A stretch of DNA of 64,000 bases from the human T2T-CHM13v2.0 reference genome, Homo sapiens (GCA_009914755.4 CP086569.2:27456001-27520000); one strand, 5' to 3'; positions 34,875-57,872 are shown, numbered from the stretch's first letter. The notes: generated by a model not told the origin, from the letters alone. Numbers and translations are program-made.

Positions 34875-37752
34875 CCTCATTGGTTAAACTGACATCGAAA
34901 AATATCAAATGAAATGTGGTGAAGTGGAGTGGATTGTAATGAAATGGGGTGGAATGAAATTGAATGGAGTGGAGTGTATTGGAGTCTACTGGAGTGGAAT
35001 GGAACGGAATGCAAAGGAATGGAATAGAATGCAGTGAAGTGCAGTGCAGTGAAGTGGAGTGGAAAGGAATGGAATGGAATGGAATGGAATGGAATGGAAT
35101 GGAATGGAATGGAACGGAATCAAATGGTATCGAAGTGAATCGAATCTAATGAAATTGATCGGAAAAAATGGAATGGAGTAGAATCGAATAAGATGGATTC
35201 AAAGGCAACAAATAGAATTGAATGGAATGCGGTGAGGTGGAGGGCATTGGAATGGAGTTGAATGGAATGGGGTATAATTGAATTGAATGGAGTGGAGTGG
35301 ATTGTAGTGGACTGGAGTGGAATGGAACGGAATGGGCAGGAATGGAATTGAAAGGGGTGAATTGGAATTGAGTGCTGTGGATTGGAGTAGACTGCATTCT
35401 AGTGGACTGGAGTGGAAAGAAGTGGAGTGGAATGGAATGGAATGCAATGGAGTGGAGTGGAATGGAATGGAGTGGAGTAGAATGGAATTTAATGGAGTGG
35501 AGTGGAATTGAGTGGAATGGAGAGTAATGGAGTGGAGTGGACTGGAGCGAAGTGGAGTGTAGTGCATTGGACTGTAGGGGATTGAAGTGGCTTGGAGTGC
35601 AATGGAGTGGAGTGGAATGGAATGTAATGGAATGGAATGGAATGGAGTGGAATGGAATCGAATCACATGGAACTGAATCAAATCGAATTGAATGAAATTG
35701 AATGGAAAAAATGGAATGAAATGGAATCAAATCGAATGGATTCGAATGACATTGAATGGAATCGAAAGGAATGCAGTGAGGTGGAGTTGAGTGGAGTGGA
35801 GTGGAATGGAATGGGATGAATGGAATTGACTGGAGAGGAGTGGAATGGAATGGAATGGAAAGGAATGGAATTGAACGAAATGGAGTGTAGTAGAATGTAG
35901 TGGATTGGAGTGGAGTGCAGGGGAGTGCAGTGGAATGAAGAGGAGTGTAGTTGAATGGAATGGAATGGTATGGAACGTACTGGAATGGAATGGATAAGAA
36001 TGGAATGGAATGGAATCGCATGGAATTGAATAGAATGAAATCGAATTGAATAGAATCAAAAGGAAAAAATGGAGGCAAATGGAATCGAATGTCATAGAAT
36101 CGAACGGTTTTGAATGTCAGTGAAAGGAAACGAATGGAATGCGATGAAGTGGAGCGGAGCGGAGTGGAAAGGAGTGCAATGGAATAGGGTGGAACAGAAT
36201 TTAATGGAACAGAGTGGATTGGAGTGGACTGGAGTGGAATGGAAAGGGAAGGAATGGGATTGAAAGGAGTGGCGTGCAGTGGAGTGGAGTGGCATGGAGT
36301 GGAGTGGAGTGGAATGGAGTGGAATGGAATGGAGTGGAATGGAGTGGATTGGAATGGAATGGAGTGCAGAGGAATGGAATGGAATGGTATAGAGTGGACA
36401 GGAATGGAGTGGAGTGGATTGGAATGGAATGGAATGTAAGGGAATGGAACTGAATGGACTGGAATGGAATGGAGTAGAATGGAATCACAGGGAATCAAAT
36501 TGGATTGAATCGAATCGAATGGAGAAAATGAAATCAAATGAAATTGAATGGAATCGAATTGAATGTAAACAATGGAATCCAATGGAGTCAAATGGAATCG
36601 AATCAAATGGTTTTGAATGGCATCAAATGAAATGGCATGGAAGGCAGTGAATTGGAGTGGAGTGGAATAGAGAGGAATGAATTGGAATGGAGTGTAGTGG
36701 AATGGAGTGGATTGGATTGGAATGGAATGGAATAGATTGGATTGGAGTGGTGCAGAGTGGAGTGGACTGGAGTGCAGAGGAATGGAGTGGAGTGAAGTCC
36801 AGTTGAGTGGAATGGAATGGAGTGGAGCAGAGTGGAATTCAAAAGAATGAAGTGGATTGGTATGGAATGGAATGGCGTGGAATGGCGTGGAATAGAATGG
36901 AATGGAATCGCATGGAATGATATGAAATCAAATCGAATTGAACGGAAAATTATGAATCCAATGGAATCGAAAGGATTCTAAAGGAATGGATTCGAAAGGC
37001 ATTGAATGGAATGGAAAGGAATGCAGTGAAGTGGAGTGGAGTGGAGTGGAATGTTTTAGAGTGAACTGGGGTGGATTGGAACTCTATGGCGGGGAGTGGA
37101 GTGAAGTGGATTGGAGTGGAATGGAGCGCAATGGACTGGAGTGGAGTGGAATGGATTGGAGTGGAGTGGAGTGCATCGGAGTGGAGTGCTGTGGAGTGGA
37201 CTAGAGTGGGGTGGAGTGGAGTGCATTGGAGTGGAATGGAACGGAGTGGGGTGGAATGGAATGGAATGGAATCAAATCGCATGGTAATGAATCAAATGGA
37301 ATCAAATCGAATGGAAATAATGGAATCGAAGGGAAACGAATGGAATCGAATTGCACTGATTCTACTGACTTCGAGGAAAATGAAATGAAATGCGGTGAAG
37401 TGGAATGGAGGGAATGTATTAGGGTGGAATGGAATTGAATGGTGTGGAGTGGAGTGGAGTGCCCAGGAGTGGAATGGGAAGAAATGGAATTGAACGGAGT
37501 GGAGTGGAGTGGAATGGGGGATAATGGAGTGGAGTAGAGTGGAGTGGAGTAGAGTGGAATGGGTTGGAGTGTAATGCAGAGTACAGGAGTGGAGTGCGGT
37601 GGACTGGAGTGGAGTGGAGTTGAGTGGAGTGGATTGGATTGAAATAGAGCGGAGCAGAGTGGAATGGAATTGAATCACATGGTATTGAATCAAATCGAAT
37701 GGAATTAAATCGAATCAAAAAATGGAATCAAAAGCAAACGAATGGAGTCAAA
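34875..37752 (+). repeat. HOR unit U10 (2878 bp, c type)
   Basis: Tail ORF 37071-37388 is identical to 34193-34510. Head ORF 35146-36606 is close to 32253-33728. It has an expanded (GGAAT)9 tract at 35066-35110. Confidence 0.85.
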
Positions 37753-40644
37753 CCTCATTGGTAAAACTGACATCGAAAAATATCAAATGAAATGTGGTGA
37801 AGTGGAGTGGAGTGTAATGAAATGGGGTGGAATGAAATTGAATGGAGTGGAGTGGATTGGAGTCTACTGGAGTGGAATGGAACGGAATGCAAAGGAATGG
37901 AATAGAATGCAGTGAAGTGCAGTGCAGTGAAGTGGAGTGGAAAGGAATGGAATGGAATGGAATGGAATGGAATGGAATGGAACGGAATCAAATGGTATCG
38001 AAGTGAATCGAATCTAATGAAATTGATCGGAAAAAATGGAATGGAGTAGAATCGAATAAGATGGATTCAAAGGCAACAAATAGAATTGAATGGAATGCGG
38101 TGAGGTGGAGGGCATTGGAATGGAGTTGAATGGAATGGGGTATAATTGAATTGAATGGAGTGGAGTGGATTGCAGTGGACTGGAGTGGAATGGAACGGAA
38201 TGGGCAGGAATGGAATTGAAAGGGGTGAATTGGAATTGAGTGCTGTGGATTGGAGTAGACTGCATTGTAGTGGACTGGAGTGGAAAGAAGTGGAGTGGAA
38301 TGGAATGGAATGCAATGGAGTGGAGTGGAATGGAATGGAGTGGAGTAGAATGGAATTTAATGGAGTGGAGTGGAATTGAGTGGAATGGAGAGTAATGGAG
38401 TGGAGTGGACTGGAGCGAAGTGGAGTGTAGTGCATTGGACTGTAGGGGATTGAAGTGGCTTGGAGTGCAATGGAGTGGAGTGGAATGGAATGTAATGGAA
38501 TGGAATGGAATGGAGTGGAATGGAGTGGAATGGAATCGAATCACATGGAACTGAATCAAATCGAATTGAATGAAATTGAATGGAAAAAATGGAATGAAAT
38601 GGAATCAAATCGAATGGATTCGAATGACATTGAATGGAATCAAAAGGAATGCAGTGAGGTGGAGTTGAGTGAAGTGGAGTGGAATGGAATGGGATGAATG
38701 GAATTGACTGGAGAGGAGTGGAATGGAATGGAATGGAAAGTCATGGATTTGAAAAAAATGGAGTGTAGTAGAATGTAGTGGATTGGAGTGGAGTGCAGGG
38801 GAGTGCAGTGGAATGAAGTGGAGTGTAGTTGAATGGAATGGAATGGTATGTAACGTACAGGAATGGAATGGATAAGAATGGAATGGAATGGAATCGCACG
38901 GAATTGAATAGAATCAAATCGAATTGAATAGAATCAAATGGAAAAATGGAGTCAAATGGAATCGAATGGCATAGAATGGAACGGTTTTGAATGTCAGTGA
39001 ATGGAAACGAATGGAATGCGATGAAGTGGAGCGGAGTGGAGTGGAAAGGAGTGCAATGGAATAGGGTGGAACAGAATTTAATGGTACAGAGTGGATTGGA
39101 GTGTACTGGAGTGGAATGGAATGGGAAGGAATGGGATTGAAAGGAGTGGCGTGCAGTGGAGTGGAGTGGCATGGAGTGGAGTGGAGTGGAATGGAGTGGA
39201 ATGGAATGGAGTGGAATGGAGTGGATTGGAATGGAATGGAGTGCAGAGGAATGGAATGGAATGGTATAGAGTGGACAGGAATGGAGTGGAGTGGATTGGA
39301 ATGGAATGGAATGTAAGGGAATGGAACTGAATGGACTGGAATGGAATGGAATAGAATGGAATCGCAGGGAATCAAATTGGATTGAATCGAATCGAATGGA
39401 AAAAATGAAATCAAATGAAATTGAATGGAATCGAATTGAATGTAAACAATGGGATCCAATGGAATCCAATGGAATCGAATCAAATGGTTTTGAATGGCAT
39501 CAAATGAAATGGCATGGAAGGCAGTGAATTGGAGTGGAGTGGAATAGAGTGGAACGAATTGGAATGGAGTGTAGTGGAATGGCGTGGATTCCATTGGAGT
39601 GGAGTGGATTGGATTGGAATGGAATGGAATAGATTGGATTGGAGTGGTGCAGAGTGGAGTGGACTGGAGTGCAGAGGAATGGAGTGGAGTGAAGTCCAGT
39701 TGAGTGGAATGGAATGGAGTGGAGCAGAGTGGAATGCAATAGAATGAAGTGGAATGGTATGGAATGGAATGTCGAGGAATGACGTGGAATAGAAAGGAAT
39801 GGAATCGCATGGAACGATACCAAATCAAATCGAATCAAACGGAAAATTATGAATCCTATGGAATCGAAAGGATTCTAAAGGAAGGGATTCGAAATGCATT
39901 GAATGGAATGGAAAGGAATGCAGTGGAGTGGAGTGGAGTGGAATGTTTTAGAGTGAACTTGGGTGGATTGGAACTCTATGGAGAGGAGTGGAGTGAAGTG
40001 GATAGGAGTGGAATGGAGTGCAATGGACTGGAGTGGAGTGGAATGGATTGGAGTGGAGTGGAGTGGATCGGAGTGGAGTGCCGTGGAGTGGACTAGAGTG
40101 AGGTGGAGTGGAGTACATTGGAGTGGAATGGAGTGGAGTGGGGTGCAATGGAATGGAATGGCATCAAATCGCATGGTAATGAATCAAATGGAATCAAATG
40201 GAATGGAAATAATGGAATCGAAGGCAAACGAATGGAATCGAATTGCACTGATTCTACTGACTTCGAACAAAATGAAATGAAACGCGGTGAAGTGGAGTGG
40301 AGTGGAATGTATTGGGTGGAATGGAATAGAATGGTGTGGAGTGGAGTGGAGTGCCCAGGAGGGGAACGGGAAGAAATGGAATTGAAGGGAGTGGAGTGGA
40401 GTGGAATGGGGCATAATGGAGTGGAATAGTGTGGAGTGGAGTAGAGTGGAATGGGTTGGAATGGAATGCAGAGGACAGGATTGGAGTGCGTTGGACTGGA
40501 GTGCAGTAGAGTTGAGTGGAGTGGAGTGGATTGAAATAGAGCGGAGCAGAGTGGGATGGAATTGAATCACATGGTATTGAATCAAATCGAATGGAATTAA
40601 ATCGAATGTAAAAATGGAATCAAATGCAAACGAATGGAGTCAAA
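37753..40644 (+). repeat. HOR unit U11 (2892 bp, a type); copy 2 of the duplicated block begins about 38.7 kb
   Basis: ORFs 38741-39469, 38914-39828, 39749-40096 and 39963-40280 match U7 ORFs at an offset of 11502. Confidence 0.85.
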
Positions 40645-43513
40645 CCACATTGGTTAAACTGACATCGAATAATATCAAAAGAAATGTGGTGAAGTGGAGT
40701 GGAGTGTAACGAAATGGAGTGGAATGAAATTGAATGGAGTGGGGTAGATTGGAGTCTACTGGAGTGGAATAGAATGGAATGGAAAGGAATGGAATAGAAT
40801 GGAGTGAAGTGCAGTGCAGTGAAATGGAGTGGAAAGGAATGGAATGGAATGGAAGCAAATGGAATCGAAGTGAATCGCATCTAATGAAATTGATCGGAAA
40901 AAATGGAATGGAGTAGAATCGAAGAAGATGGATTCAAAAGGCAACAAATAGAATTGAATGGAATGCGGTGAGTTGGAGGGCATTGGAATGGAGTTGAATG
41001 GAATGGGGTGTAATTGAATTGAATGGAGTGGAGTGGATTGTAGTGGACTGGAGTGGAATGGAACGGAATGGGCAGGAATTTAATTGAAAGGGGTGAATTG
41101 GAATTGAGTGCTGTGGATTGGAGTAGACTGCATTGTAGTGGATTGGAGTGGAAAGAAGTGGAGTGGAATGGAATTGAATGCAATGGAGTGGGGTGGAATG
41201 GAATGGAGTGGAGTAGAATGGAATTTAATGGAGTGGAGTGGAATTGAGTGGAATGGAGAGTAATGGAGTGGAGTGGACTGGAGCGAAGTGGAGTGTAGTG
41301 CATTGGACTGTAGGGGATTGAAGTGGCTTGGAGTGCAATGGAGTGGAGTGGAATGGAATGTAATGCCATGGAATGGAATGGAATGGAATGTAGTGGAATG
41401 GAATCGAATCACATGGAACTGAATCAAATCGAATTGAATGAAATTGAATGGAAAAAATGGAATCCAATGGAATCAAATCGAATGGATTCGAATGACATTG
41501 AATGGAATCGAAATGAATGCAGTGAGGTGGAGTTGAGTGGAGTGGAGTGGAATGGAATGGGATGAATGGAATTGACTGGAGAGGAGTGGAATGGAATGGA
41601 ATGGAAAGCAATGGAATTGAACAAAATGGAGTGTAGTAGAATGTAGTGGATTGGAGTGGAGTGCCGGGGAGTGCAGTGAAATGAAGAGGATTGTAGTTGA
41701 ATGGAATGGAATGGTATGGAACGTACTGGAATGGAATGGATAAGAACGGAATGGAATGGAATCGCATGGAATTGAAAAGAATCAAATCGAATTGAATAGA
41801 ATCAAATGGAAAAAATGGAGGCAAATGGAATCGAATGTCATAGAATCGAACGGTTTTGAATGTCAGTGAATGGAAACGAATGGAATGCGATGAAGTGGAG
41901 CGGAGTGGAGTGGAAAGGAGTGCAATGGAATAGGGTGGAACAGAATTTAATGGAACAGAGTGGATTGGAGTGGACTGGAGTGGAATGGAAAGGGAAGGAA
42001 TGGGATTGAAAAGAGTGGCGTGCAGTGGAGTGGAGTGGCATGGAGTGGAGTGGAGTGGAATGGAGTGGAATGGAATGGAGTGGAATGGAGTGGATTGGAA
42101 TGGAATGGAGTGCAGAGGAATGGAATGGAATGGTATAGAGTGGACAGGAATGGAGTGGAGTGGATTGGAATGGAATGGAATGTAAGGGAATGGAACTGAA
42201 TGGACTGGAATGGAATGGAATAGAATGGAATCGCAGGGAATCAAATTGGATTGAATCGAATCGAATGGAAAAAATGAAAACAAATGAAATTGAATGGAAT
42301 CGAATTGAATGTAAACAATGGAATCCAATGGAGTCAAATGGAATCGAATCAAATGGTTTTGAATGGCATCAAATGAAATGACATGGAAGGCAGTGAATTG
42401 GAGTGGAGTGGAATAGAGAGGAATGAATTGGAATGGAGTGTAGTGGAATGGCGTGGATTCCAGTGGAGTGGAGTGGATTGGATTTGAATGGAATGGAATA
42501 GATTCTATTCGAGTGGTGCAGAGTGGAGTGGACTGGAGTGCAGAGGAATGGAGTGGAGTGAAGTCCAGTTGAGTGGAATGGAATGGAGTGGAGCAGAGTG
42601 GAATGCAAAAGAATGAAGTGGATTGTTATGGAATGGAATGGCGTGGAATGGCGTGGAATAGAATGAAATTAAATCGCATGGAATGATACCAAATCAAATC
42701 GAATCAAACGGAAAATTATGAATCCAATGGAATCGAAAGGATTCTAAAGGAATGGATTCGAAAGGCATTGAATGGAATGTAAAGGAATGCAGTGGAGTGG
42801 AGTGGAGTGGAATGTTTTAGAGTAAACTTGGGTGGATTGGAAATCTATGGAGAGGAGTGCAGTGAAGTGGATTGGAGTGGAATGGAGTGCAATGGACTGG
42901 AGTGGACTGGAATGGATTGGAGTGGAGTGGATTGGATCGGAGCGGAGTGCCGTGGAGTGGACTAGAGTGAGGTGGAGTGGAGTGCATTGGAGTGGAATGG
43001 AGTGGAGTGGGGTGCAACGGAATGGAATGGCATCAAATCGCATGGTAATGAATCAAATGGAATCAAATCGAATGGAAATAATGGAATCGAAGGCAAACGA
43101 ATGGAATCGAATTGCACTGATTCTACTGACTTCGAACAAAATGAAATGAAACGCGCTGAAGTGGAGTGGAGTGGAATGTATTGGGTGGAATGGAATAGAA
43201 TGGTGTGGAGTGGAGTGGAGTGCCCAGGAGTGGAATGGGAAGAAATGGAATTGAACGGAGTGGAGTGGAGTGGAATGGGGCATAATGGAGTGGAATAGTG
43301 TGGAGTGGAGTAGAGTGGAATAGGTTGGAGTGGAATGCAGAGGACAGGATTGGAGTGCGGTGGACTGGAGTGGAGTAGAGTTGAGTGGAGTGGAGTGGAT
43401 TGAAATAGAGCGGAGCAGAGAGGGATGGAATTGAATCACATGGAATTGAATCAAATCGAATGGAATTAAATCGAATGAAAAAATGGAATCAAATGTAAAC
43501 GAATGGAGTCAAA
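40645..43513 (+). repeat. HOR unit U12 (2869 bp, b type)
   Basis: ORFs 41225-42352 and 42832-43149 match U8 at an offset of 11502. The gattctattc variant lies at about 42496-42510. Confidence 0.85.
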
Positions 43514-46371
43514 CCACATTGGTTAAACTGAGATAGAATAATATCAAAAGAAATGTGGTGAAGTGGAGTGGAGTGTAACGAAATGGAGTGGAATGAAATT
43601 GAATGGAGTGGGGTCGATTGGAGTCTACTGGAGTGGAATGGAATGGAATGGAAAGGAATGGAATAGAATGGAGTGAAGTGTAGTGCAGTGAAATGGAGTG
43701 GAAAGGAATGGAATGGAATGGAATGGAATCAAATGGAATCGAAGTGAATCGAAGCTAATGAAATTGATCAGAAAAAATCGAATGGAGTCGAATCGAATAA
43801 TATGGATTCAAAAGGCAACAAATAGAATGAATGGAATGCGGTGAGTTGGAGGGCAATGGAATGGAGTTGAATGGAATGGCGTGTAATTGAATTGAATGGA
43901 GTGGAGTGGATTGGAGTGGACTGGAGTGGAATGGAACAGAATGGGCAGGAATGGAATTGAAAGGCGTGAATTGTAATTGAGTGCTGTGGATTGGAGTAGA
44001 CTGCATTGTAGTGGATTGCAGTGGAAAGAAGTGGAGTGGAATGGAATGGAAGGCAATGGAGTGGAGGGGAATGGAATGGAGTGGAGTAGAATGGAATTTA
44101 ATGGAGTGGAGTGGAATTGAGTGGAATGGAGAGTAATGGAGTGGAGTGGACTGGAGCGAAGTGGAGTGTAGTGCATTAGACTGTAGGGGATTGAAGTGGC
44201 TTGGAGTGCAATGGAGTGGAGTGGAATGGAATGTAATGGAATGGAATGGAGTGGAATGGAATCGAATCACATGGAACTGAATCAAATCGAATTGAATGAA
44301 ATTGAATGGAAAAAATGGAATGAAATGGAATCAAATCGAATGGATTCGAATGACATTGAATGGAATCGAAAGGAATGCAGTGAGGTGTAGTTGAGTGGAG
44401 TGGAGTGGAATGGAATGGGATGAATGGAATTGACTGGAGAGGAGTGGAATGGAATGGAATGGAAAGGAATGGAATTGAACGAAATGGAGTGTGGTAGAAT
44501 GTAGTGGATTGGAGTGGAGTGCAGGGGAGTGCAGTGGAATGAAGAGGAGTGTAGTTGAATGGAATGGAATGGTATGGAACGTACTGGAATGGAATGGATA
44601 AGAATGGAATGGAATGGAATCGCATAGAATTGAATAGAATGAAATCGAATTGAATAGAATCAAATGGAAAAAATGGAGGCAAATGGAATCGAATGTCATA
44701 GAATCGAACGGTTTTGAATGTCAGAGAATGGAAACGAATGGAATGCGATGATGTAGAGCGGAGTGGAGTGGAAAGGAGTGCAATGGAATAGGGTGGAAAA
44801 GAATTTAATGGAACAGAGTGGATTGGAGTGGACTGGAGTGGAATGGAATGGGAAGGAATGGGATTGAAAGGAGTGGCGTGCAGTGGAGTGGAGTGGCATG
44901 GAGTGGAGTGGAGTGGAATGGAGTGGAATGGAATGGAGTGGAATGGAGTGGATTGGAATGGAATGGAGTGCAGAGGAATGGAATGGAATGGTATAGAGTG
45001 GACAGGAATGGAGTGGAGTGGATTGGAATGGAATGGAATGTAAGGGAATGGAACTGAATGGACTGGAATGGAATGGAATAGAATGGAATCGCATGGAATC
45101 AAATTGGATTGAATCGAATCGAATGGAAAAAATGAAAACAAATGAAATTGAATGGAATCGAATTGAATGTAAACAATGGAATCCAATGGAGTCAAATGGA
45201 ATCGAATCAAATGGTTTTGAATGGCATCAAATGAAATGACATGGAAGGCAGTGAATTGGAGTGGAGTGGAATAGAGAGGAATGAATTGGAATAGAGTGTA
45301 GTGGAATGGCGTGGATTCCAGTGGAGTGGAGTGGATTGGATTTGAATGGAATGGAATAGATTGGATTGGAGTGGTGCAGAGTGGAGTGGACTGGAGTGCA
45401 GAGGAATGGAGTGGAGTGAAGTCCAGTTGAGTGGAATGGAATGGAGTGGAGCAGAGTGGAATGCAAAAGAATGAAGTGGATTGTTATGGAATGGAATGGC
45501 GTGGAATGGCGTGGAATAGAATGAAATTAAATCGCATGGAATGATACCAAATCAAATCGAATCAAACGGAAAATTATGAATCCAATGGAATCGAAAGGAT
45601 TCTAAAGGAATGGATTCGAAAGGCATTGAATGGAATGTAAAGGAATGCAGTGGAGTGGAGTGGAGTGGAATGTTTTAGAGTAAACTTGGGTGGATTGGAA
45701 ATCTATGGAGAGGAGTGGAGTGAAGTGGATTGGAGTGGAATGGAGTGCAATGGACTGGAGTGGACTGGAATGGATTGGAGTGGAGTGGATTGGATCGGAG
45801 CGGAGTGCCGTGGAGTGGACTAGAGTGAGGTGGAGTGGAGTGCATTGGAGTGGAATGGAGTGGAGTGGGGTGCAACGGAATGGAATGGCATCAAATCGCA
45901 TGGTAATGAATCAAATGGAATCAAATCGAATGGAAATAATGGAATCGAAGGCAAACGAATGGAATCGAATTGCACTGATTCTACTGACTTCGAACAAAAT
46001 GAAATGAAACGCGCTGAAGTGGAGTGGAGTGGAATGTATTGGGTGGAATGGAATAGAATGGTGTGGAGTGGAGTGGAGTGCCCAGGAGTGGAATGGGAAG
46101 AAATGGAATTGAACGGAGTGGAGTGGAGTGGAATGGGGCATAATGGAGTGGAATAGTGTGGAGTGGAGTAGAGTGGAATAGGTTGGAGTGGAATGCAGAG
46201 GACAGGATTGGAGTGCGGTGGACTGGAGTGGAGTAGAGTTGAGTGGAGTGGAGTGGATTGAAATAGAGTGCAGCAGAGAGGGATGGAATTGAATCACATG
46301 GAATTGAATCAAATCGAATGGAATTAAATCGAATGAAAAAATGGAATCAAATGTAAACGAATGGAGTCAAA
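43514..46371 (+). repeat. HOR unit U13 (2858 bp, chimeric: c-type head, b-type tail)
   Basis: The head (ORFs 43755-44285, 44331-44699, 44818-45057) matches the U9 head at offset 11502 to 11482. The tail (ORFs 45018-45239, 45602-45901, 45690-46007) matches the U8 tail at offset 14360. The switch lies at about 44.9-45.08 kb. Confidence 0.8.
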
Positions 46372-49248
46372 CCACATTGGTTAAACTGAGATAGAATAAT
46401 ATCAAAAGAAATGTGGTGAAGTGGAGTGGAGTGTAACGAAATGGAGTGGAATGAAATTGAATGGAGAGGGGTCGATTGGAGTCTAGTGGAGTGGAATGGA
46501 ATGGAATGGAAAGGAATGGAATAGAATGGAGTGAAGTGTAGTGCAGTGAAATGGAGTGGAAAGGAATGGAATGGAATGGAATGGAATCAAATGGAATCGA
46601 AGTGAATCGAAGCTAATGAAATTGATCAGAAAAAATCGAATGGAGTCGAATCGAATAATATGGATTCAAAAGGCAACAAATAGAATGAATGGAATGCGGT
46701 GAGTTGGAGGGCAATGGAATGGAGTTGAATGGAATGGGGTGTAATTGAATTGAATGGAGTGGAGTGGATTGGAGTGGACTGGAGTGGAATGGAACAGAAT
46801 GGGCAGGAATGGAATTGAAAGGCGTGAATTGTAATTGAGTGCTGTGGATTGGAGTAGACTGCATTGTAGTGGATTGCAGTGGAAAGAAGTGGAGTGGAAT
46901 GGAATGGAAGGCAATGGAGTGGAGGGGAATGGAATGGAGTGGAGTAGAATGGAATTTAATGGAGTGGAGTGGAATTGAGTGGAATGGAGAGTAATGGAGT
47001 GGAGTGGACTGGAGCGAAGTGGAGTGTAGTGCATTAGACTGTAGGGGATTGAAGTGGCTTGGAGTGCAATGGAGTGGAGTGGAATGGAATGTAATGTAAT
47101 GGAATGGAATGGAATGGAATGGAATGGAGTGGAATGGAATCGAATCACATGGAACTGAATCAAATCGAATTGAATGAAATTGAATGGAAAAAATGGAATG
47201 AAATGGAATCAAATCGAATGGATTCGAATGACATTGAATGGAATCGAAAGGAATGCAGTGAGGTGGAGTTGAGTGGAATGGAGTGGAATGGAATGGGATG
47301 AATGGAATTGACTGGAGAGGAGTGGAATGGAATGGAATGGAAAGTCATGGAATTGAAAAAAATGGAGTGTAGTAGAATGTAGTGGATTGGAGTGGAGTGC
47401 AGGGGAGTGCAGTGGAATGAAGTGGAGTGTAGTTGAATGGAATGGAATGGTATGGAACGTACAGGAATGGAATGGATAAGAATGGAATGGAATGGAATCG
47501 CATGGAATTGAATAGAATCAAATCGAATTGAATAGAATCAAATGTAAAAATGGAGTCAAATGGAATCGAATGGCATAGAATGGAACGGTTTTGAATGTCA
47601 GTGAATGGAAACGAATGGAATGCGATGAAGTGGAGCGGAGTGGAGTGGAAAGGAGTGCAATGGAATAGGGTGGAACAGAATTTAATGGTACAGAGTGGAT
47701 TGGAGTGTACTGGAGTGGAATGGAATGGGAAGGAATGGGATTGAAAGGAGTGGCGTGCAGTGGAGTGGAGTGGCATGGAGTGGAGTGGAGTGGAATGGAG
47801 TGGAATGGAATGGAGTGGAATGGAGTGGATTGGAATGGAATGGAGTGCAGAGGAATGGAATGGAATGGTATAGAGTGGACAGGAATGGAGTGGAGTGGAT
47901 TGGAATGGAATGGAATGTAAGGGAATGGAACTGAATGGACTGGAATGGAATGGAATAGAATGGAATCGCAGGGAATCAAATTGGATTGAATCAAATCGAA
48001 TGGAAAAAATGAAATCAAATGAAATTGAATGGAATCGAATTGAATGTAAACAATGGGATCCAATGGAATCCAATGGAATCGAATCAAATGGTTTTGAATG
48101 GCATCAAATGAAATGGCATGGAAGGCAGTGAATTGGAGTGGAGTGGAATAGAGTGGAACGAATTGGAATGGAGTGTAGTGGAATGGCGTGGATTCCATTG
48201 GAGTGGAGTGGATTGGATTGGAATGGAATGGAATAGATTGGATTGGAGTGGTGCAGAGTGGAGTGGACTGGAGTGCAGAGGAATGGAGTGGAGTGAAGTC
48301 CAGTTGAGTGGAATGGAATGGAGTGGAGCAGAGTGGAATGCAATAGAATGAAGTGGAATGGTATGGAATGGAATGTCGAGGAATGACGTGGAATAGAAAG
48401 GAATGGAATCGCATGGAACGATACCAAATCAAATCGAATCAAACGGAAAATTATGAATCCTATGGAATCGAAAGGATTCTAAAGGAAGGGATTCGAAATG
48501 CATTGAATGGAATGGAAAGGAATGCAGTGGAGTGGAGTGGAGTGGAATGTTTTAGAGTGAACTTGGGTGGATTGGAACTCTATGGAGAGGAGTGGAGTGA
48601 AGTGGATAGGAGTGGAATGGAGTGCAATGGACTGGAGTGGAGTGGAATGGATTGGAGTGGAGTGGAGTGGATCGGAGTGGAGTGCCGTGGAGTGGACTAG
48701 AGTGAGGTGGAGTGGAGTACATTGGAGTGGAATGGAGTGGAGTGGGGTGCAATGGAATGGAATGGCATCAAATCGCATGGTAATGAATCAAATGGAATCA
48801 AATGGAATGGAAATAATGGAATCGAAGGCAAACGAATGGAATCGAATTGCACTGATTCTACTGACTTCGAACAAAATGAAATGAAACGCGGTGAAGTGGA
48901 GTGGAGTGGAATGTATTGGGTGGAATGGAATAGAATGGTGTGGAGTGGAGTGGAGTGCCCAGGAGGGGAACGGGAAGAAATGGAATTGAAGGGAGTGGAG
49001 TGGAGTGGAATGGGGCATAATGGAGTGGAATAGTGTGGAGTGGAGTAGAGTGGAATGGGTTGGAATGGAATGCAGAGGACAGGATTGGAGTGCGTTGGAC
49101 TGGAGTGCAGTAGAGTTGAGTGGAGTGGAGTGGATTGAAATAGAGCGGAGCAGAGTGGGATGGAATTGAATCACATGGTATTGAATCAAATCGAATGGAA
49201 TTAAATCGAATGTAAAAATGGAATCAAATGCAAACGAATGGAGTCAAA
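46372..49248 (+). repeat. HOR unit U14 (2877 bp, a-type body with c-type head); copy 3 of the duplicated block begins about 47.1-47.16 kb
   Basis: Head ORF 46666-47163 is nearly identical to 32306-32803 (U9) and to the adjacent unit (43808-44176), not to the U7 head. From 47160 onwards the ORFs equal those of U7 at an offset of 20106. Confidence 0.8.
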
Positions 49249-52117
49249 CCACATTGGTTAAACTGACATCGAATAATATCAAAAGAAATGTGGTGAAGTG
49301 GAGTGGAGTGTAACGAAATGGAGTGGAATGAAATTGAATGGAGTGGGGTCGATTGGAGTCTACTGGAGTGGAATAGAATGGAATGGAAAGGAATGGAATA
49401 GAATGGAGTGAAGTGCAGTGCAGTGAAATGGAGTGGAAAGGAATGGAATGGAATGGAAGCAAATGGAATCGAAGTGAATCGCATCTAATGAAATTGATCG
49501 GAAAAAATGGAATGGAGTAGAATCGAAGAAGATGGATTCAAAAGGCAACAAATAGAATTGAATGGAATGCGGTGAGTTGGAGGGCATTGGAATGGAGTTG
49601 AATGGAATGGGGTGTAATTGAATTGAATGGAGTGGAGTGGATTGTAGTGGACTGGAGTGGAATGGAACGGAATGGGCAGGAATTTAATTGAAAGGGGTGA
49701 ATTGGAATTGAGTGCTGTGGATTGGAGTAGACTGCATTGTAGTGGATTGGAGTGGAAAGAAGTGGAGTGGAATGGAATTGAATGCAATGGAGTGGGGTGG
49801 AATGGAATGGAGTGGAGTAGAATGGAATTTAATGGAGTGGAGTGGAATTGAGTGGAATGGAGAGTAATGGAGTGGAGTGGACTGGAGCGAAGTGGAGTGT
49901 AGTGCATTGGACTGTAGGGGATTGAAGTGGCTTGGAGTGCAATGGAGTGGAGTGGAATGGAATGTAATGCCATGGAATGGAATGGAATGGAATGTAGTGG
50001 AATGGAATCGAATCACATGGAACTGAATCAAATCGAATTGAATGAAATTGAATGGAAAAAATGGAATCCAATGGAATCAAATCGAATGGATTCGAATGAC
50101 ATTGAATGGAATCGAAATGAATGCAGTGAGGTGGAGTTGAGTGGAGTGGAGTGGAATGGAATGGGATGAATGGAATTGACTGGAGAGGAGTGGAATGGAA
50201 TGGAATGGAAAGCAATGGAATTGAACAAAATGGAGTGTAGTAGAATGTAGTGGATTGGAGTGGAGTGCCGGGGAGTGCAGTGAAATGAAGAGGATTGTAG
50301 TTGAATGGAATGGAATGGTATGGAACGTACTGGAATGGAATGGATAAGAACGGAATGGAATGGAATCGCATGGAATTGAAAAGAATCAAATCGAATTGAA
50401 TAGAATCAAATGGAAAAAATGGAGGCAAATGGAATCGAATGTCATAGAATCGAACGGTTTTGAATGTCAGTGAATGGAAACGAATGGAATGCGATGAAGT
50501 GGAGCGGAGTGGAGTGGAAAGGAGTGCAATGGAATAGGGTGGAACAGAATTTAATGGAACAGAGTGGATTGGAGTGGACTGGAGTGGAATGGAAAGGGAA
50601 GGAATGGGATTGAAAAGAGTGGCGTGCAGTGGAGTGGAGTGGCATGGAGTGGAGTGGAGTGGAATGGAGTGGAATGGAATGGAGTGGAATGGAGTGGATT
50701 GGAATGGAATGGAGTGCAGAGGAATGGAATGGAATGGTATAGAGTGGACAGGAATGGAGTGGAGTGGATTGGAATGGAATGGAATGTAAGGGAATGGAAC
50801 TGAATGGACTGGAATGGAATGGAATAGAATGGAATCGCAGGGAATCAAATTGGATTGAATCGAATCGAATGGAAAAAATGAAAACAAATGAAATTGAATG
50901 GAATCGAATTGAATGTAAACAATGGAATCCAATGGAGTCAAATGGAATCGAATCAAATGGTTTTGAATGGCATCAAATGAAATGACATGGAAGGCAGTGA
51001 ATTGGAGTGGAGTGGAATAGAGAGGAATGAATTGGAATGGAGTGTAGTGGAATGGCGTGGATTCCAGTGGAGTGGAGTGGATTGGATTTGAATGGAATGG
51101 AATAGATTCTATTCGAGTGGTGCAGAGTGGAGTGGACTGGAGTGCAGAGGAATGGAGTGGAGTGAAGTCCAGTTGAGTGGAATGGAATGGAGTGGAGCAG
51201 AGTGGAATGCAAAAGAATGAAGTGGATTGTTATGGAATGGAATGGCGTGGAATGGCGTGGAATAGAATGAAATTAAATCGCATGGAATGATACCAAATCA
51301 AATCGAATCAAACGGAAAATTATGAATCCAATGGAATCGAAAGGATTCTAAAGGAATGGATTCGAAAGGCATTGAATGGAATGTAAAGGAATGCAGTGGA
51401 GTGGAGTGGAGTGGAATGTTTTAGAGTAAACTTGGGTGGATTGGAAATCTATGGAGAGGAGTGCAGTGAAGTGGATTGGAGTGGAATGGAGTGCAATGGA
51501 CTGGAGTGGACTGGAATGGATTGGAGTGGAGTGGATTGGATCGGAGCGGAGTGCCGTGGAGTGGACTAGAGTGAGGTGGAGTGGAGTGCATTGGAGTGGA
51601 ATGGAGTGGAGTGGGGTGCAACGGAATGGAATGGCATCAAATCGCATGGTAATGAATCAAATGGAATCAAATCGAATGGAAATAATGGAATCGAAGGCAA
51701 ACGAATGGAATCGAATTGCACTGATTCTACTGACTTCGAACAAAATGAAATGAAACGCGCTGAAGTGGAGTGGAGTGGAATGTATTGGGTGGAATGGAAT
51801 AGAATGGTGTGGAGTGGAGTGGAGTGCCCAGGAGTGGAATGGGAAGAAATGGAATTGAACGGAGTGGAGTGGAGTGGAATGGGGCATAATGGAGTGGAAT
51901 AGTGTGGAGTGGAGTAGAGTGGAATAGGTTGGAGTGGAATGCAGAGGACAGGATTGGAGTGCGGTGGACTGGAGTGGAGTAGAGTTGAGTGGAGTGGAGT
52001 GGATTGAAATAGAGCGGAGCAGAGAGGGATGGAATTGAATCACATGGAATTGAATCAAATCGAATGGAATTAAATCGAATGAAAAAATGGAATCAAATGT
52101 AAACGAATGGAGTCAAA
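49249..52117 (+). repeat. HOR unit U15 (2869 bp, b type)
   Basis: ORFs 49829-50956 and 51436-51753 equal the U8 and U12 ORFs at offsets of 20106 and 8604. Confidence 0.85.
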
Positions 52118-54980
52118 CCACATTGGTTAAACTGAGATAGAATAATATCAAAAGAAATGTGGTGAAGTGGAGTGGAGTGTAACGAAATGGAGTGGAATGA
52201 AATTGAATGGAGTGGGGTCGATTGGAGTCTACTGGAGTGGAATGGAATGGAATGGAAAGGAATGGAATAGAATGGAGTGAAGTGTAGTGCAGTGAAATGG
52301 AGTGGAAAGGAATGGAATGGAATGGAATGGAATCAAATGGAATCGAAGTGAATCGAAGCTAATGAAATTGATCAGAAAAAATCGAATGGAGTCGAATCGA
52401 ATAATATGGATTCAAAAGGCAACAAATAGAATGAATGGAATGCGGTGAGTTGGAGGGCAATGGAATGGAGTTGAATGGAATGGCGTGTAATTGAATTGAA
52501 TGGAGTGGAGTGGATTGGAGTGGACTGGAGTGGAATGGAACAGAATGGGCAGGAATGGAATTGAAAGGCGTGAATTGTAATTGAGTGCTGTGGATTGGAG
52601 TAGACTGCATTGTAGTGGATTGCAGTGGAAAGAAGTGGAGTGGAATGGAATGGAAGGCAATGGAGTGGAGGGGAATGGAATGGAGTGGAGTAGAATGGAA
52701 TTTAATGGAGTGGAGTGGAATTGAGTGGAATGGAGAGTAATGGAGTGGAGTGGACTGGAGCGAAGTGGAGTGTAGTGCATTAGACTGTAGGGGATTGAAG
52801 TGGCTTGGAGTGCAATGGAGTGGAGTGGAATGGAATGTAATGGAATGGAATGGAATGGAATGGAATGGAATGGAGTGGAATGGAATCGAATCACATGGAA
52901 CTGAATCAAATCGAATTGAATGAAATTGAATGGAAAAAATGGAATGAAATGGAATCAAATCGAATGGATTCGAATGACATTGAATGGAATCGAAAGGAAT
53001 GCAGTGAGGTGTAGTTGAGTGGAGTGGAGTGGAATGGAATGGGATGAATGGAATTGACTGGAGAGGAGTGGAATGGAATGGAATGGAAAGGAATGGAATT
53101 GAACGAAATGGAGTGTGGTAGAATGTAGTGGATTGGAGTGGAGTGCAGGGGAGTGCAGTGGAATGAAGAGGAGTGTAGTTGAATGGAATGGAATGGTATG
53201 GAACGTACTGGAATGGAATGGATAAGAATGGAATGGAATGGAATCGCATAGAATTGAATAGAATGAAATCGAATTGAATAGAATCAAATGGAAAAAATGG
53301 AGGCAAATGGAATCGAATGTCATAGAATCGAACGGTTTTGAATGTCAGAGAATGGAAACGAATGGAATGCGATGATGTAGAGCGGAGTGGAGTGGAAAGG
53401 AGTGCAATGGAATAGGGTGGAAAAGAATTTAATGGAACAGAGTGGATTGGAGTGGACTGGAGTGGAATGGAATGGGAAGGAATGGGATTGAAAGGAGTGG
53501 CGTGCAGTGGAGTGGAGTGGCATGGAGTGGAGTGGAGTGGAATGGAGTGGAATGGAATGGAGTGGAATGGAGTGGATTGGAATGGAATGGAGTGCAGAGG
53601 AATGGAATGGAATGGTATAGAGTGGACAGGAATGGAGTGGAGTGGATTGGAATGGAATGGAATGTAAGGGAATGGAACTGAATGGACTGGAATGGAATGG
53701 AGTAGAATGGAATCACAGGGAATCAAATTGGATTGAATCGAATCGAATGGAGAAAATGAAATCAAATGAAATTGAATGGAATCGAATTGAATGTAAACAA
53801 TGGAATCCAATGGAGTCAAATGGAATCGAATCAAATGGTTTTGAATGGCATCAAATGAAATGGCATGGAAGGCAGTGAATTGGAGTGGAGTGGAATAGAG
53901 AGGAATGAATTGGAATGGAGTGTAGTGGAATGGAGTGGATTGGATTGGAATGGAATGGAATAGATTGGATTGGAGTGGTGCAGAGTGGAGTGGACTGGAG
54001 TGCAGAGGAATGGAGTGGAGTGAAGTCCAGTTGAGTGGAATGGAATGGAGTGGAGCAGAGTGGAATTCAAAAGAATGAAGTGGATTGGTATGGAATGGAA
54101 TGGCGTGGAATGGCGTGGAATAGAATGGAATGGAATCGCATGGAATGATATGAAATCAAATCGAATTGAACGGAAAATTATGAATCCAATGGAATCGAAA
54201 GGATTCTAAAGGAATGGATTCGAAAGGCATTGAATGGAATGGAAAGGAATGCAGTGAAGTGGAGTGGAGTGGAGTGGAATGTTTCAGAGTGAACTGGGGT
54301 GGATTGGAACTCTATGGCGGGGAGTGGAGTGAAGTGGATTGGAGTGGAATGGAGCGCAATGGACTGGAGTGGAGTGGAATGGATTGTAGTGGAGTTGAGT
54401 GGATCGGAGTGGAGTGCTGTGGAGTGGACTAGAGTGGGGTGGAGTGGAGTGCATTGGAGTGGAATGGAACGGAGTGGGGTGGAATGGAATGGAATGGAAT
54501 CAAATCGCATGGTAATGAATCAAATGGAATCAAATCGAATGGAAATAATGGAATCGAAGGGAAACGAATGGAATCGAATTGCACTGATTCTACTGACTTC
54601 GAGGAAAATGAAATGAAATGCGGTGAAGTGGAATGGAGGGAATGTATTAGGGTGGAATGAAATTGAATGGTGTGGAGTGGAGTGGAGTGCCCAGGAGTGG
54701 AATGGGAAGAAATGAAATTGAACGGAGTGGAGTGGAGTGGAATGGGGGATAATGGAGTGGAGTAGAGTGGAGTGGAGTAGAGTGGAATGGGTTGGAGTGT
54801 AATGCAGAGTACAGGAGTGGAGTGCGGTGGACTGGAGTGGAGTGGAGTTGAGTGGAGTGGATTGGATTGAAATAGAGCGGAGCAGAGTGGAATGGAATTG
54901 AATCACATGGTATTGAATCAAATCGAATGGAATTAAATCGAATCAAAAAATGGAATCAAAAGCAAACGAATGGAGTCAAA
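52118..54980 (+). repeat. HOR unit U16 (2863 bp, c type)
   Basis: The 491-aa ORF 52359-53834 is identical in translation to 32253-33728. Tail ORF 54299-54616 is c type. Confidence 0.85.
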
Positions 54981-57872
54981 CCTCATTGGTTAAACTGACA
55001 TCGAAAAATATCAAATGTAATGTGGTGAAGTGGAGTGGAGTGTAATGAAATGGGGTGGAATGAAATTGAATGGAGTGGAGTGGATTGGAGTCTACTGGAG
55101 TGGAATGGAACGGAATGCAAAGGAATGGAAAGAATGCAGTGAAGTGCAGTGCAGTGAAATGGAGTGGAAAGGAATGGAATGGAATGGAATGGAATGGAAT
55201 GGAACGGAATCAAATGGTATCGAAGTGAATCGAATCTAATGAAATTGATCGGAAAAAATGGAATGGAGTAGAATCGAATAAGATGGATTCAAAGGCAACA
55301 AATAGAATTGAATGGAATGCGGTGAGGTGGAGGGCATTGGAATGGAGTTGAATGGAATGGGGTATAATTGAATTGAATGGAGTGGAGTGGATTGTAGTGG
55401 ACTGGAGTGGAATGGAACGGAATGGGCAGGAATGGAATTGAAAGGGGTGAATTGGAATTGAGTGCTGTGGATTGGAGTAGACTGCATTCTAGTGGATTGG
55501 AGTGGAAAGAAGTGGAGTGGAATGGAATGGAATGCAATGGAGTGGAGTGGAATGGAATGGATTGGAGTAGAATGGAATTTAATGGAGTGGAGTGGAATTG
55601 AGTGGAATGGAGAGTAATGGAGTGGAGTGGACTGGAGCGAAGTGGAGTGTAGTGCATTGGACTGTAGGGGATTGAAGTGGCTTGGAGTGCAATGGAGTGG
55701 AGTGGAATGGAATGTAATGGAATGGAATGGAATGGAATGGAATGTAGTGGAATGGAATCGAATCACATGGAACTGAATCAAATCGAATTGAATGAAATTG
55801 AATGGAAAAAATGGAATCAAATGGAATCAAATCGAATGGATTCGAATGACATTGAATGGAATCGAAAGGAATGCAGTGAGGTGGAGTTGAGTGGAGTGGA
55901 GTGGAATGGAATGGGATGAATGGAATTGACTGGAGAGGAGTGGAATGGAATGGAATGGAAAGGAATGGAATTGAACGAAATGGAGTGTAGTAGAATGTAG
56001 TGGATTGGAGTGGAGTGCAGGGGAGTGCAGTGGAATGAAGAGGAGTGTAGTTGAATGGAATGGAATGGTATGGAACGTACTGGAATGGAATGGATAAGAA
56101 TGGAATGGAATGGAATCGCATGGAATTGAATAGAATGAAATCGAATTGAATAGAATCAAATGGAAAAAATGGAGGCAAATGGAATCGAATGTCATAGAAT
56201 CGAACGGTTTTGAATGTCAGTGAATGGAAACGAATGGAATGCGATGAAGTGGAGCGGAGTGGAGTGGAAAGGAGTGCAATGGAATAGGGTGGAACAGAAT
56301 TTAATGGAACAGAGTGGATTGGAGTGGACTGGAGTGGAATGGAAAGGGAAGGAATGGGATTGAAAGGAGTGGCGTGCAGTGGAGTGGAGTGGCATGGAGT
56401 GGAGTGGAGTGGAATGGAGTGGAATGGAATGGAGTGGAATGGAGTGGATTGGAATGGAATGGAGTGCAGAGGAATGGAATGGAATAGTATAGAGTGGACA
56501 GGAATGGAGTGGAGTGGATTGGAATGGAATGGAATGTAAGGGAATGGAACTGAATGGACTGGAATGGAATGGAATAGAATGGAATCGCAGGGAATCAAAT
56601 TGGATTGAATCGAATCGAATGGAGAAAATGAAATCAAATGAAATTGAATGGAATCGAATTGAATGTAAACAATGGAATCCAATGGAGTCAAATGGAATCG
56701 AATCAAATGGTTTTGAATGGCATCAAATGAAATGGCATGGAAGGCAGTGAATTGGAGTGGAGTGGAATAGAGAGGAATGAATTGGAATGGAGTGTAGTGG
56801 AATGGAGTGGATTCCAATGGATTGGAGTGGATTGGATTGGAATGGAATGGAATAGATTGGATTGGAGTGGTGCAGAGTGGAGTGGACTGGAGTGCAGAGG
56901 AATGGAGTGGAGTGAAGTCCAGTTGAGTGGAATGGAATGGAGTGGAGCAGAGTGGAATTCAAAAGAATGAAGTGGATTGGTATGGAATGGAATGGCGTGG
57001 AATGGCGTGGAATAGAATGGAATGGAATCGCATGGAATGATATGAAATCAAATCGAATTGAACGGAAAATTATGAATCCAATGGAATCGAAAGGATTCTA
57101 AAGGAATGGATTCGAAAGGCATTGAATGGAATGGAAAGGAATGCAGTGAAGTGGAGTGGAGTGGAGTGGAATGTTTTAGAGTGAACTGGGGTGGATTGGA
57201 ACTCTATGGCGGGGAGTGGAGTGAAGTGGATTAGAGTGGAATGGAGTGCAATGGACTGGAGTGGAGTGGAATGGATTGGAGTGGAGTGGAGTGGATCGGA
57301 GTGGAGTGCTGTGGAGTGGACTAGAGTGGGGTGGAGTGGAGTACATTGGAGTGGAATGGAACGGAGTGGGGTGGAATTGAATGGAATGGAATCAAATCGC
57401 ATGGTAATGAATCAAATGGAATCAAATCGAATGGAAATAATGGAATTGAAGGGAAACGAATGGAATCGAATTGCACTGATTCTACTGACTTCGAGGAAAA
57501 TGAAATGAAATGCGGTGAAGTGGAATGGAGGGAATGTATTAGGGTGGAATGGAATTGAATGGTGTGGAGTGGAGTGGAGTGCCCAGGAGTGGAATGGGAA
57601 GAAATGGAATTGAACGGAGTGGAGTGGAGTGGAATGGGGGATAATGGAGTGGAGTAGAGTGGAGTGGAGTAGAGTGGAATGGGTTGGAGTGTAATGCAGA
57701 GTACAGGAGTGGAGTGCGGTGGACTGGAGTGGAGTGGAGTTGAGTGGAGTGGATTGGATTGAAATAGAGCGGAGCAGAGTGGAATGGAATTGAATCACAT
57801 GGTATTGAATCAAATCGAATGGAATTAAATCGAATGAAAAAATGGAATCAAAAGCAAACGAATGGAGTCAAA
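54981..57872 (+). repeat. HOR unit U17 (2892 bp, c type)
   Basis: Tail ORF 57191-57508 is c type. Head ORF 55579-56817 matches 58661-59701 and 61356-62594. Confidence 0.85.

What the first reader, a model, noticed from the sequence alone, without database searches (positions are those of the whole stretch)
46372..47170. Second chimeric unit: U14 has a c-lineage head although its body is the a-type copy
ORF 46666-47163 (165 aa) is nearly identical to 32306-32803 (U9) and to the neighbouring 43808-44176 region of U13. It differs at multiple residues from the homologous ORF of U7 (26565-26933). From 47160 onward every ORF equals the U7 equivalents at offset 20106 (27054-27242 = 47160-47348 and onward). 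So the left boundary of super-block copy 3 lies inside the unit at about 47.10-47.16 kb. The head of U14 was instead copied from its upstream neighbour. Again this is consistent with slipped intra-array exchange.
Basis: seen in the sequence. Interest (0 to 1): 0.55.

Follow-up and report, generated by a model that had tools for sequence, protein, structure and literature searches.

The report
Hybrid repeat unit in pentamer satellite
One 2.9-kb unit of a (GGAAT)n-derived satellite array, probably a primate HSat3-type array, is a recombinant of two neighbouring unit variants; this is the ordinary footprint of unequal exchange in tandem repeats, not a gene or a new system.

Summary
The window is a (GGAAT)n-derived satellite organised in about 2.87-kb units (U0-U20). 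U14 (46372-49248) carries the variant alleles of the U9/U13/U16 type from 46372 to 47141. From 47266 onward it matches U7, with only two private substitutions. The switch lies in a 124-bp stretch (47142-47265) where the parental types are identical, and it is in register with no indel. The split of informative sites is [2,21] against [96,0], Fisher p = 2e-21. From 47142 to 55017 the sequence copies 27036-34911 at offset 20106, with 13 substitutions.

The interpretation needs correcting in two ways.
- The "ORFs" are frames without stops in a pentamer repeat. Pfam hits are all below threshold.
- The U14 head is not a fresh copy of U13. It lies 4-6 differences from U9, U13 and U16, which are 1-2 apart from each other. 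The adjoining U13 tail is equally diverged, 8 differences from U8/U12/U15. So 45078-47141 is one contiguous, older junction between a "b" tail and a "c" head, flanked by two young block copies. This one segment explains both chimeric units.

This is classical unequal crossing-over or gene conversion in a satellite. Interest is low.

The parts
46372..49248 (+). Unit U14 of the ~2.87-kb nested tandem repeat; the chimeric unit
   Evidence: Unit boundaries from BLAST of U14 against the window. Overall identity is 99.0% to U7 and 95.4-96.7% to U9, U16 and U13.
46372..47141 (+). c-type head of U14. It carries 12 derived alleles shared only with U9, U13 and U16, plus their extra pentamer.
   Evidence: There are 4 substitutions against U16 (46467, 46486, 46738, 47097) and 24 events against U7.
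47142..47265 (+). Switch interval: 124 bp in which U7, U14 and U16 are identical. The exchange point lies somewhere inside it.
   Evidence: The last site where U14 differs from U7 is 47141. The first site where U14 differs from U9/U13/U16 is 47266. There is no indel at the junction.
47266..49248 (+). a-type body of U14, equal to U7 at offset 20106
   Evidence: Only two differences from U7 (47545, 47993), both private to U14.
45078..47141 (+). Older contiguous patch: the b-lineage tail of U13 plus the c-lineage head of U14. It has the order of a normal b-to-c junction but is about 0.56% from its nearest relatives.
   Evidence: the U13 tail is 8 events from U8/U12/U15, which are 0 apart. The U14 head is 4-6 events from U9/U13/U16, which are 1-2 apart. 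The patch rate exceeds that between the young blocks (0.07-0.11%): binomial p = 6e-5 and 5e-4. The patch keeps ancestral alleles at 45363-45368, 45718 and 46738.
44871..45077 (+). Switch interval of U13, from c-type head and middle to b-type tail
   Evidence: The last site where U13 differs from the b type is column 1437 (44870). The first site where it differs from the c/d type is column 1655 (45078).
47142..55017 (+). Young block copy C (a-body, b unit, c unit). It is a copy of 27036-34911 at offset 20106.
   Evidence: 13 substitutions and no indel over 7.9 kb (0.16%). Identity collapses from 55018 onward.
27036..34911 (+). Block copy A (U7 body, U8, U9), the counterpart of block C
38900..44870 (+). 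Block copy B (U11 body, U12, U13 head and middle). It ends where the older patch begins.
   Evidence: U11 equals U7 from 38900 onward. U12 and U15 differ by 1 event. U13 and U16 differ by 1 event up to column 1437.
47083..47127 (+). Perfect AATGG/AATGT pentamer run whose length varies between units. This run is the reason the offset to U7 changes from 20101 to 20106.
   Evidence: After the leading AATGG (47083-47087), which all these units share, U14 and U9/U16 have 8 pentamers, U7 has 7 and U13 has 4. U14 differs from U9/U16 by one G-to-T change at 47097.
46666..47163 (-).
   Evidence: The translation is the IPFHS/TPLHS periodic peptide expected from (ATTCC)n. Pfam gives only sub-threshold pentapeptide hits, 18.7 bits against a cut-off of 38.

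Best explanation
The window is a (GGAAT)n-derived satellite of HSat3 type, most likely primate, organised as a nested tandem repeat of about 2.87 kb. U14 is a recombinant repeat unit.

An in-register homologous exchange occurred within a 124-bp stretch of perfect identity (47142-47265). It joined a c-type head to an a-type body. The mechanism was either unequal crossing-over between misaligned sister chromatids or homologues, or gene conversion.

The c-type head is not a recent copy of U13. Together with the b-type tail of U13 it forms one contiguous older b-to-c junction (45078-47141). That segment now sits between two young copies (B and C) of a roughly 6-8 kb block made of an a-body, a b unit and a c-head.

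A minimal history has three steps:
1. An exchange with a one-unit offset between a b unit and the following c unit made the c/b hybrid U13.
2. An exchange between that c unit and a downstream a unit made the c/a hybrid U14.
3. Later block duplication or conversion homogenised the flanks but not the 2.06-kb patch.

Shown: the chimerism, the breakpoint intervals, the block copies and the extra divergence of the patch. Inferred: the order of events, and crossover versus conversion. The sequence has no coding or RNA function that I can detect.
For: - Satellite nature: TRF finds period 5 (consensus TGGAA) over 6-63248. Self-identity peaks fall at multiples of 5 and at lags of 2878, 8604, 11502, 17228 and 20106. 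Twenty units lie in one orientation.
- Chimerism: informative sites split [2,21] against [96,0], p = 2e-21.
- In-register junction without an indel.
- Block copies.
- Older patch: distance matrices, binomial tests, private and ancestral alleles.
- Both the c-head and the a-body allele sets are derived. All are absent from the 15 metagenome contigs that carry the same unit. The c-head set is also absent from the older units U0-U4, while U2 already carries several of the a-body alleles. Their co-occurrence in U14 therefore requires recombination (four-gamete logic).
- Other units are mosaics too: U9, U11 and U13. Exchange is pervasive in this array.
- Literature: kb-scale 'nested tandem repeats' in HSat2/3 that evolve hyper-locally (bioRxiv 10.1101/2021.07.12.452052). 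[quoted passage not shown]
Against: - The exact sequence of events is not uniquely recoverable. Block C resembles A in its a-part (U14 to U7 is 1 event; U14 to U11 is 6, in columns 955-1437). It resembles B in its b-part (U12 to U15 is 1 event; U8 to U15 is 4). The history is therefore reticulate.
- Site 46647 (shared by U13, U14 and U16 but not U9) conflicts with site 46738 (shared by U9, U13 and U16 but not U14).
- The excess divergence of the U14 head taken alone is only marginal (p = 0.03). The case rests on head and tail together.
- No reads are available to exclude a mis-assembly.
- The species and satellite subfamily are inferred, not shown.
Confidence: 0.8

Rival explanations
1. The U14 head is a recent copy of the head of its upstream neighbour U13, made by a one-unit slip. 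It is separate from the event that made U13 chimeric.
For: The U13 and U14 heads are adjacent and both c-type. They differ by only 5 events over 830 columns. They share C at 46647.
Against: - U16 (5 events; 4 true substitutions) and U9 (6 events) are as close to U14 as U13 is, while U9, U13 and U16 are 1-2 apart from each other.
- U14 lacks the derived C at 46738 and has 3 private substitutions.
- U13 has a 20-bp deletion in the pentamer run that U14 lacks.
- The U13 tail next door shows the same extra divergence, which points to one contiguous older segment.
Confidence: 0.12
2. A single out-of-register gene-conversion tract of about 2.1-2.4 kb. It was copied from a b-to-c junction, possibly outside the window, and replaced the c-tail/a-head junction of an a-b-c-a-b-c arrangement. 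No change in unit number was involved.
For: - The patch 45078-47141 is contiguous and evenly diverged.
- Both of its ends lie in stretches of identity.
- One event explains both chimeric units.
Against: - No donor with the patch's private alleles exists in the window or in the metagenome contigs.
- It requires an a-b-c-a-b-c precursor lacking the d unit seen after U9 and U16.
- It cannot be distinguished from two crossovers with these data.
Confidence: 0.3
3. Assembly artefact. A mis-join or false duplication between near-identical repeat blocks created the apparent chimera at the block boundary.
For: The junction lies exactly at the edge of a 7.9-kb copy that is 99.84% identical. Satellite arrays are prone to mis-assembly.
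Against: - Blocks A and C differ at 13 scattered substitutions, so they are distinct sequences.
- The patch has its own private substitutions of several types and no homopolymer indels.
- The other mosaics in the array are coherent with one another.
Confidence: 0.05
4. The ORFs are real paralogous genes, and the pattern reflects gene-family exchange.
For: Long ORFs occur on both strands.
Against: - The translations are 5-residue periodic peptides (GMEWN and IPFHS types), as expected from a stop-free pentamer.
- ORFs overlap in several frames on both strands.
- Pfam hits are all far below their cut-offs. Rfam finds nothing.
Confidence: 0.01

Closest known systems
Human satellite 3 (HSat3) nested tandem repeats, for example the ~3.6-kb DYZ1 unit (HSat3A6)
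   Same: - Derived from the (CATTC)n/(GGAAT)n pentamer.
- A kb-scale repeat unit nested on the pentamer.
- Local variant types and block duplications attributed to unequal exchange (papers read).
- A related metagenome contig carries an Alu 3' end, which fits a primate source (the Alu consensus is from my own knowledge).
   Different: - The unit here is about 2.87 kb, not 3.6 kb.
- I found no published HSat3 unit of this length.
- The subfamily and chromosome could not be assigned because no reference genome was searchable.
Structural-variant or hybrid higher-order repeats in alpha satellite arrays
   Same: - Hybrid units formed by in-register exchange between variant repeats.
- Local expansion of variant blocks.
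- Older, more diverged copies toward the array edge. Here U0-U3 are 89-95% identical to the core units.
   Different: Alpha satellite HORs are built from discrete 171-bp monomers. Here the unit is a diverged pentamer tract without monomer structure, which is why Altemose et al. use the term NTR instead of HOR.
Unequal crossing-over model of tandem repeat evolution (Smith 1976; cited from my own knowledge)
   Same: - It predicts hybrid units that share a tail with one neighbour and a head with the other.
- It predicts multi-unit super-repeats.
- Both are seen here. The U9 and U10 tails are identical over 1507 bp. The heads of U10/U11 and of U13/U14 are similar.
   Different: This is a general model, not a sequence family. 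It does not by itself explain why the 2.06-kb patch escaped the latest homogenisation.

Membership tests
HSat3-type pentameric satellite | Built from diverged (GGAAT)n/(CATTC)n pentamers | tested here: met
   TRF: period 5, consensus TGGAA, 12,697 copies over 6-63248. Self-identity peaks fall at every multiple of 5. Base composition is G 37%, A 35%, T 22% and C 6%.
HSat3-type pentameric satellite | Not the HSat2 architecture (decamers plus trimers giving 23/26-bp periodicity) | tested here: met
   No peaks at lags of 23, 26 or 49; only multiples of 5 rank high. Short 44-bp sub-repeats rich in TCGAATGG occur once per unit. The unit therefore has HSat2-like patches but not HSat2 periodicity.
HSat3-type pentameric satellite | Human or primate origin | tested here: inconclusive
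   15 metagenome contigs carry the same unit at up to 98.8% identity. One (L012) continues into an Alu 3' end and one (L003) into MIR-like non-satellite DNA (repeat identification from my own knowledge). The window itself has no non-satellite flank. Two genome-contig scans gave no hits.
HSat3-type pentameric satellite | Assignment to a subfamily (A1-A6, B1-B5) by subfamily-specific k-mers (Altemose 2014) | not testable with these tools
   The k-mer sets and a human reference were not available.
Nested tandem repeat (NTR) array | A kb-scale unit repeated head to tail in one orientation, not composed of discrete equal monomers | tested here: met
   20 consecutive units of 2819-2895 bp on the + strand, 93-100% identical to each other (89-90% for the edge unit U0).
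Recombinant (hybrid) repeat unit from homologous exchange | A significant switch of parental similarity at one point, in register, within a tract of identity | tested here: met
   [2,21] against [96,0] informative sites, p = 2e-21. The identical tract is 124 bp (47142-47265). There is no indel and the unit length is normal.
Recombinant (hybrid) repeat unit from homologous exchange | Both parental allele sets are derived, so shared ancestry cannot explain the combination | tested here: met
   c-head and a-body alleles are absent from all 15 external contigs, and c-head alleles are also absent from U0-U4. Caveat: which of the four haplotype classes is the recombinant is inferred by parsimony.
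Protein-coding gene family | An ORF with a significant domain match, or non-repeat coding signal | tested here: not met
   Only sub-threshold Pentapeptide_4 and Extensin_1 hits. The peptides have the 5-residue period of the DNA repeat.

The most novel reading that the evidence does not exclude
The exchange points may not be random. Junctions in four mosaic units fall in two short zones of the 2.87-kb unit. U14 and U11 switch at alignment columns ~830-1250. U9 and U13 switch at columns ~1437-1655. A 2.06-kb segment between two young block copies escaped homogenisation. This could mean the unit contains preferred recombination-initiation or resolution sites, so that the array evolves by multi-unit block conversion with fixed phase. 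Such a pattern would be testable across human haplotypes.
Probability: 0.1. Interest if true: 0.35.

Novelty: already known. Interest (0 to 1): 0.1.

Why it matters
It matters little beyond bookkeeping. The finding documents, at base resolution, how a pentamer-derived satellite array is remodelled by in-register unequal exchange and block duplication, which is textbook behaviour for tandem repeats.

It has some use as a marker. The U13/U14 hybrid pair and its private alleles (45094, 45293, 46271, 46467, 46486, 47097) are unique tags. They could anchor reads in this array, or be used to follow its haplotypes and time its expansions if the array is located in a reference genome.

It also warns against reading ORFs in stop-poor simple repeats.

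Tried and rejected
- Whole-window self-BLAST returned only the self hit because of HSP culling. I replaced it with a unit alignment and ungapped offset comparisons.
- A scan of metagenome contigs for the exact chimeric junction (c marker, gap, a markers) gave 0 hits. The junction is not a common variant in public short-read assemblies.
- Two scans of bacterial and archaeal genome contigs for invariant unit 30- and 32-mers, looking for host contamination, gave 0 hits.
- Pfam on three 'ORFs' gave only sub-threshold periodic-repeat hits. Rfam on the whole window found nothing.
- The PRDM9 13-mer motif (CCNCCNTNNCCNC, either strand) is absent from the whole window, so there is no motif-based hotspot explanation.
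- A literature search for an HSat3 unit of 2.9 kb found nothing. The subfamily remains unassigned.
- A simple tandem duplication of 3 units (8.6 kb) as the origin of blocks B and C is rejected. It would require the U13 tail to equal the U16 tail, but they differ by 73 events.
- Extension of the offset-20106 copy to the left of 47142, followed by conversion, is unsupported. The U13 tail is 22 events from the U6 tail but 8 from U8/U12/U15.

Full report
**What the window is**

The 64-kb window is strongly strand-asymmetric: G 37%, A 35%, T 22%, C 6%. Tandem Repeats Finder reports one period-5 array, consensus TGGAA, from 6 to 63248. Self-identity peaks at every multiple of 5 and at long lags of 2878, 8604, 11502, 17228 and 20106. 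BLAST of the U14 stretch against the window finds 20 consecutive copies of a ~2.87-kb unit, all on the + strand.

This is a pentamer-derived satellite with a kb-scale unit. Altemose et al. call such units "nested tandem repeats" in HSat2/3 (bioRxiv 10.1101/2021.07.12.452052). The homogeneous array starts near 6.65 kb. Units U0-U3 are more diverged (89-95% identical to the core units), and the central units are 96-100% alike.

**The ORFs are not genes**

The long ORFs on both strands translate to 5-residue periodic peptides, of GMEWN type on + and IPFHS type on -. This is what a stop-free pentamer gives in every frame. Pfam returns only sub-threshold Pentapeptide and Extensin hits, and Rfam returns nothing.

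**Checking the observation**

- In an alignment of all 20 units, U14 is 99.0% identical to U7 overall.
- All but two of its differences from U7 lie left of 47142.
- At those sites U14 carries alleles found only in U9, U13 and U16. There are twelve such derived alleles between 46390 and 47036.
- U14 also carries the U9/U16 pentamer count in the run 47083-47127.
- Right of 47266, U14 follows U7 at 96 of 96 sites that distinguish U7 from U16. Left of 47141 it follows U16 at 21 of 23. Fisher p = 2e-21, with the best split between 47141 and 47266.
46666-47163 differs from the U9 and U16 equivalents at two positions. From 47142 to 55017 the offset-20106 comparison shows 13 substitutions and no indel.
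- The switch is in register, leaves a unit of normal length, and lies in a 124-bp stretch where U7, U14 and U16 are identical.

The boundary is resolvable only to 47142-47265, not to 47.10-47.16 kb.

**What the head really is**

Segment-wise distances change the interpretation.

- In the head (columns 0-830), U9, U13 and U16 are 1-2 events apart. U14 is 5-6 events from each of them. Against U16 this is four true substitutions: 46467, 46486, 46738 and 47097.
- Three of those four are private to U14. At 46738, U14 keeps the ancestral G where the other three c-heads share a derived C.
- U13 has a 20-bp deletion in the pentamer run that U14 lacks. So U13 is not a privileged source.
- The sequence immediately upstream, the U13 tail from 45078, is b-type. 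It is 8 events from U8, U12 and U15, which are identical to each other. It keeps ancestral alleles at 45363-45368 and 45718.

So 45078-47141 is one contiguous segment with the order of a normal b-to-c junction. It is about 0.56% from its nearest relatives, against 0.07-0.11% between the three young copies of the block made of an a-body, a b unit and a c-head. Those copies are A (27.04-34.9 kb), B (38.9-44.87 kb) and C (47.14-55.0 kb). Binomial tests give p = 6e-5 and 5e-4. Block B ends at the left edge of the patch (44871-45077). Block C starts at its right edge (47142-47265). The two "chimeric units" U13 and U14 are thus two faces of one structure.

**Mechanism**

Both allele sets combined in U14 are derived. 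None of the 21 diagnostic alleles occurs in the 15 metagenome contigs that carry the same unit at up to 98.8% identity. The c-head alleles are also absent from the older units U0-U4; U2 already carries several of the a-body alleles. Their co-occurrence therefore requires recombination.

The in-register, indel-free junctions inside tracts of identity point to homologous exchange rather than end-joining. A minimal history has three steps:
1. A one-unit-offset exchange between a b unit and the following c unit gave the c/b hybrid U13.
2. An exchange between that c unit and a downstream a unit gave the c/a hybrid U14.
3. Later block duplication or conversion homogenised the flanks.

The reverse order of steps 1 and 2 is excluded, because U13 has a c-type middle (columns 955-1437) that U14 lacks. 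A single 2.1-kb out-of-register conversion tract is an alternative I cannot exclude.

The history is reticulate. Block C resembles A in its a-part and B in its b-part. Other units are mosaics too. The U9 and U10 tails are identical over 1507 bp. U11 has a d-type head and an a-type body from 38900.

No PRDM9-type motif exists in the window.

**Origin**

The window has no non-satellite flank. Of the related metagenome contigs, L012 runs from the satellite into an Alu 3' end, and L003 runs into MIR-like DNA (element recognition from my own knowledge). This points to a primate, most likely human, source. It fits the known contamination of public data by human HSat3 (bioRxiv 10.1101/2022.12.01.518724). 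I could not assign a subfamily or chromosome, and I found no published HSat3 unit of 2.9 kb.

**Comparison with what is known, and verdict**

Hybrid repeat units, multi-unit super-repeats and local expansions are the classical products of unequal crossing-over and conversion in satellites. They are described for alpha satellite HOR variants and for the Yq12 DYZ1/DYZ2 arrays. The finding is real and now has precise coordinates and a simpler unifying description. It is an ordinary instance of a known process, with no sign of a functional element. Interest is low.

The only mildly novel reading left open is that exchange points cluster at preferred positions of the unit. That would need the whole array and many haplotypes to test.

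Noticed in passing
window 33368-34874 and 36246-37752: The tails of U9 and U10 are identical over 1507 bp with 0 differences, although their heads differ by about 40 events. This is the signature of a very recent one-unit-offset exchange or conversion.
   Followed up: partly
window 37753-38900: U11 is another chimera. Its head resembles U10 and U17 (d-type, 9-12 events). From 38900 it is identical to U7 (a-type). It also has a private 15-bp insertion at 37964-37978.
   Followed up: partly
window 54285-54715: A cluster of five substitutions private to U16 (T>C, G>T, G>T, G>A, G>A) lies within 430 bp of an otherwise near-perfect copy of U9. The rest of the 7.9-kb block copy has 8 differences.
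   Followed up: no
window 1-6652: The homogeneous 2.87-kb array starts near 6653, at unit position ~381. To the left is a much more diverged pentamer satellite that still aligns to the unit at ~72% (479-2498). Units U0-U3 are progressively less diverged. The result is an edge-to-core age gradient.
   Followed up: partly
window 63292-64000: At the right end, the last partial unit (63650-64000) is only 90% identical to U14. TRF reports different short periods there (GTGGA, 15-mers, 20-mers). This may be another change in array structure.
   Followed up: no
L001-L015 (metagenome contigs): All 15 external copies of the unit resemble the U17-U19/U10 (d) type best, at up to 98.8%. None has a-, b- or c-specific derived alleles at the sites checked. 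The a/b/c variants therefore look like local, low-copy derivatives of a commoner type.
   Followed up: partly
L012 2810-3515 and L003 1-738: Two metagenome contigs run from the satellite into non-satellite DNA: an Alu 3' end with an A-rich tail in L012, and MIR-like sequence in L003. The two flanks are unrelated and join the unit at different phases. They are either different loci or chimeric assemblies.
   Followed up: partly
L011 1-48: The contig begins with what looks like a Nextera transposase adapter (GTCTCGTGGGCTCGGAGATGTGTATAAGAGACAG; recognised from my own knowledge). This is untrimmed adapter in a public metagenome assembly.
   Followed up: no
window 44250 region (U13 pentamer run, alignment columns 771-800): U13 has a private 20-bp (four-pentamer) deletion in the AATGG run. 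The run varies from 2 to 9 pentamers across units, so it is a slippage-prone microsatellite nested inside the unit.
   Followed up: partly
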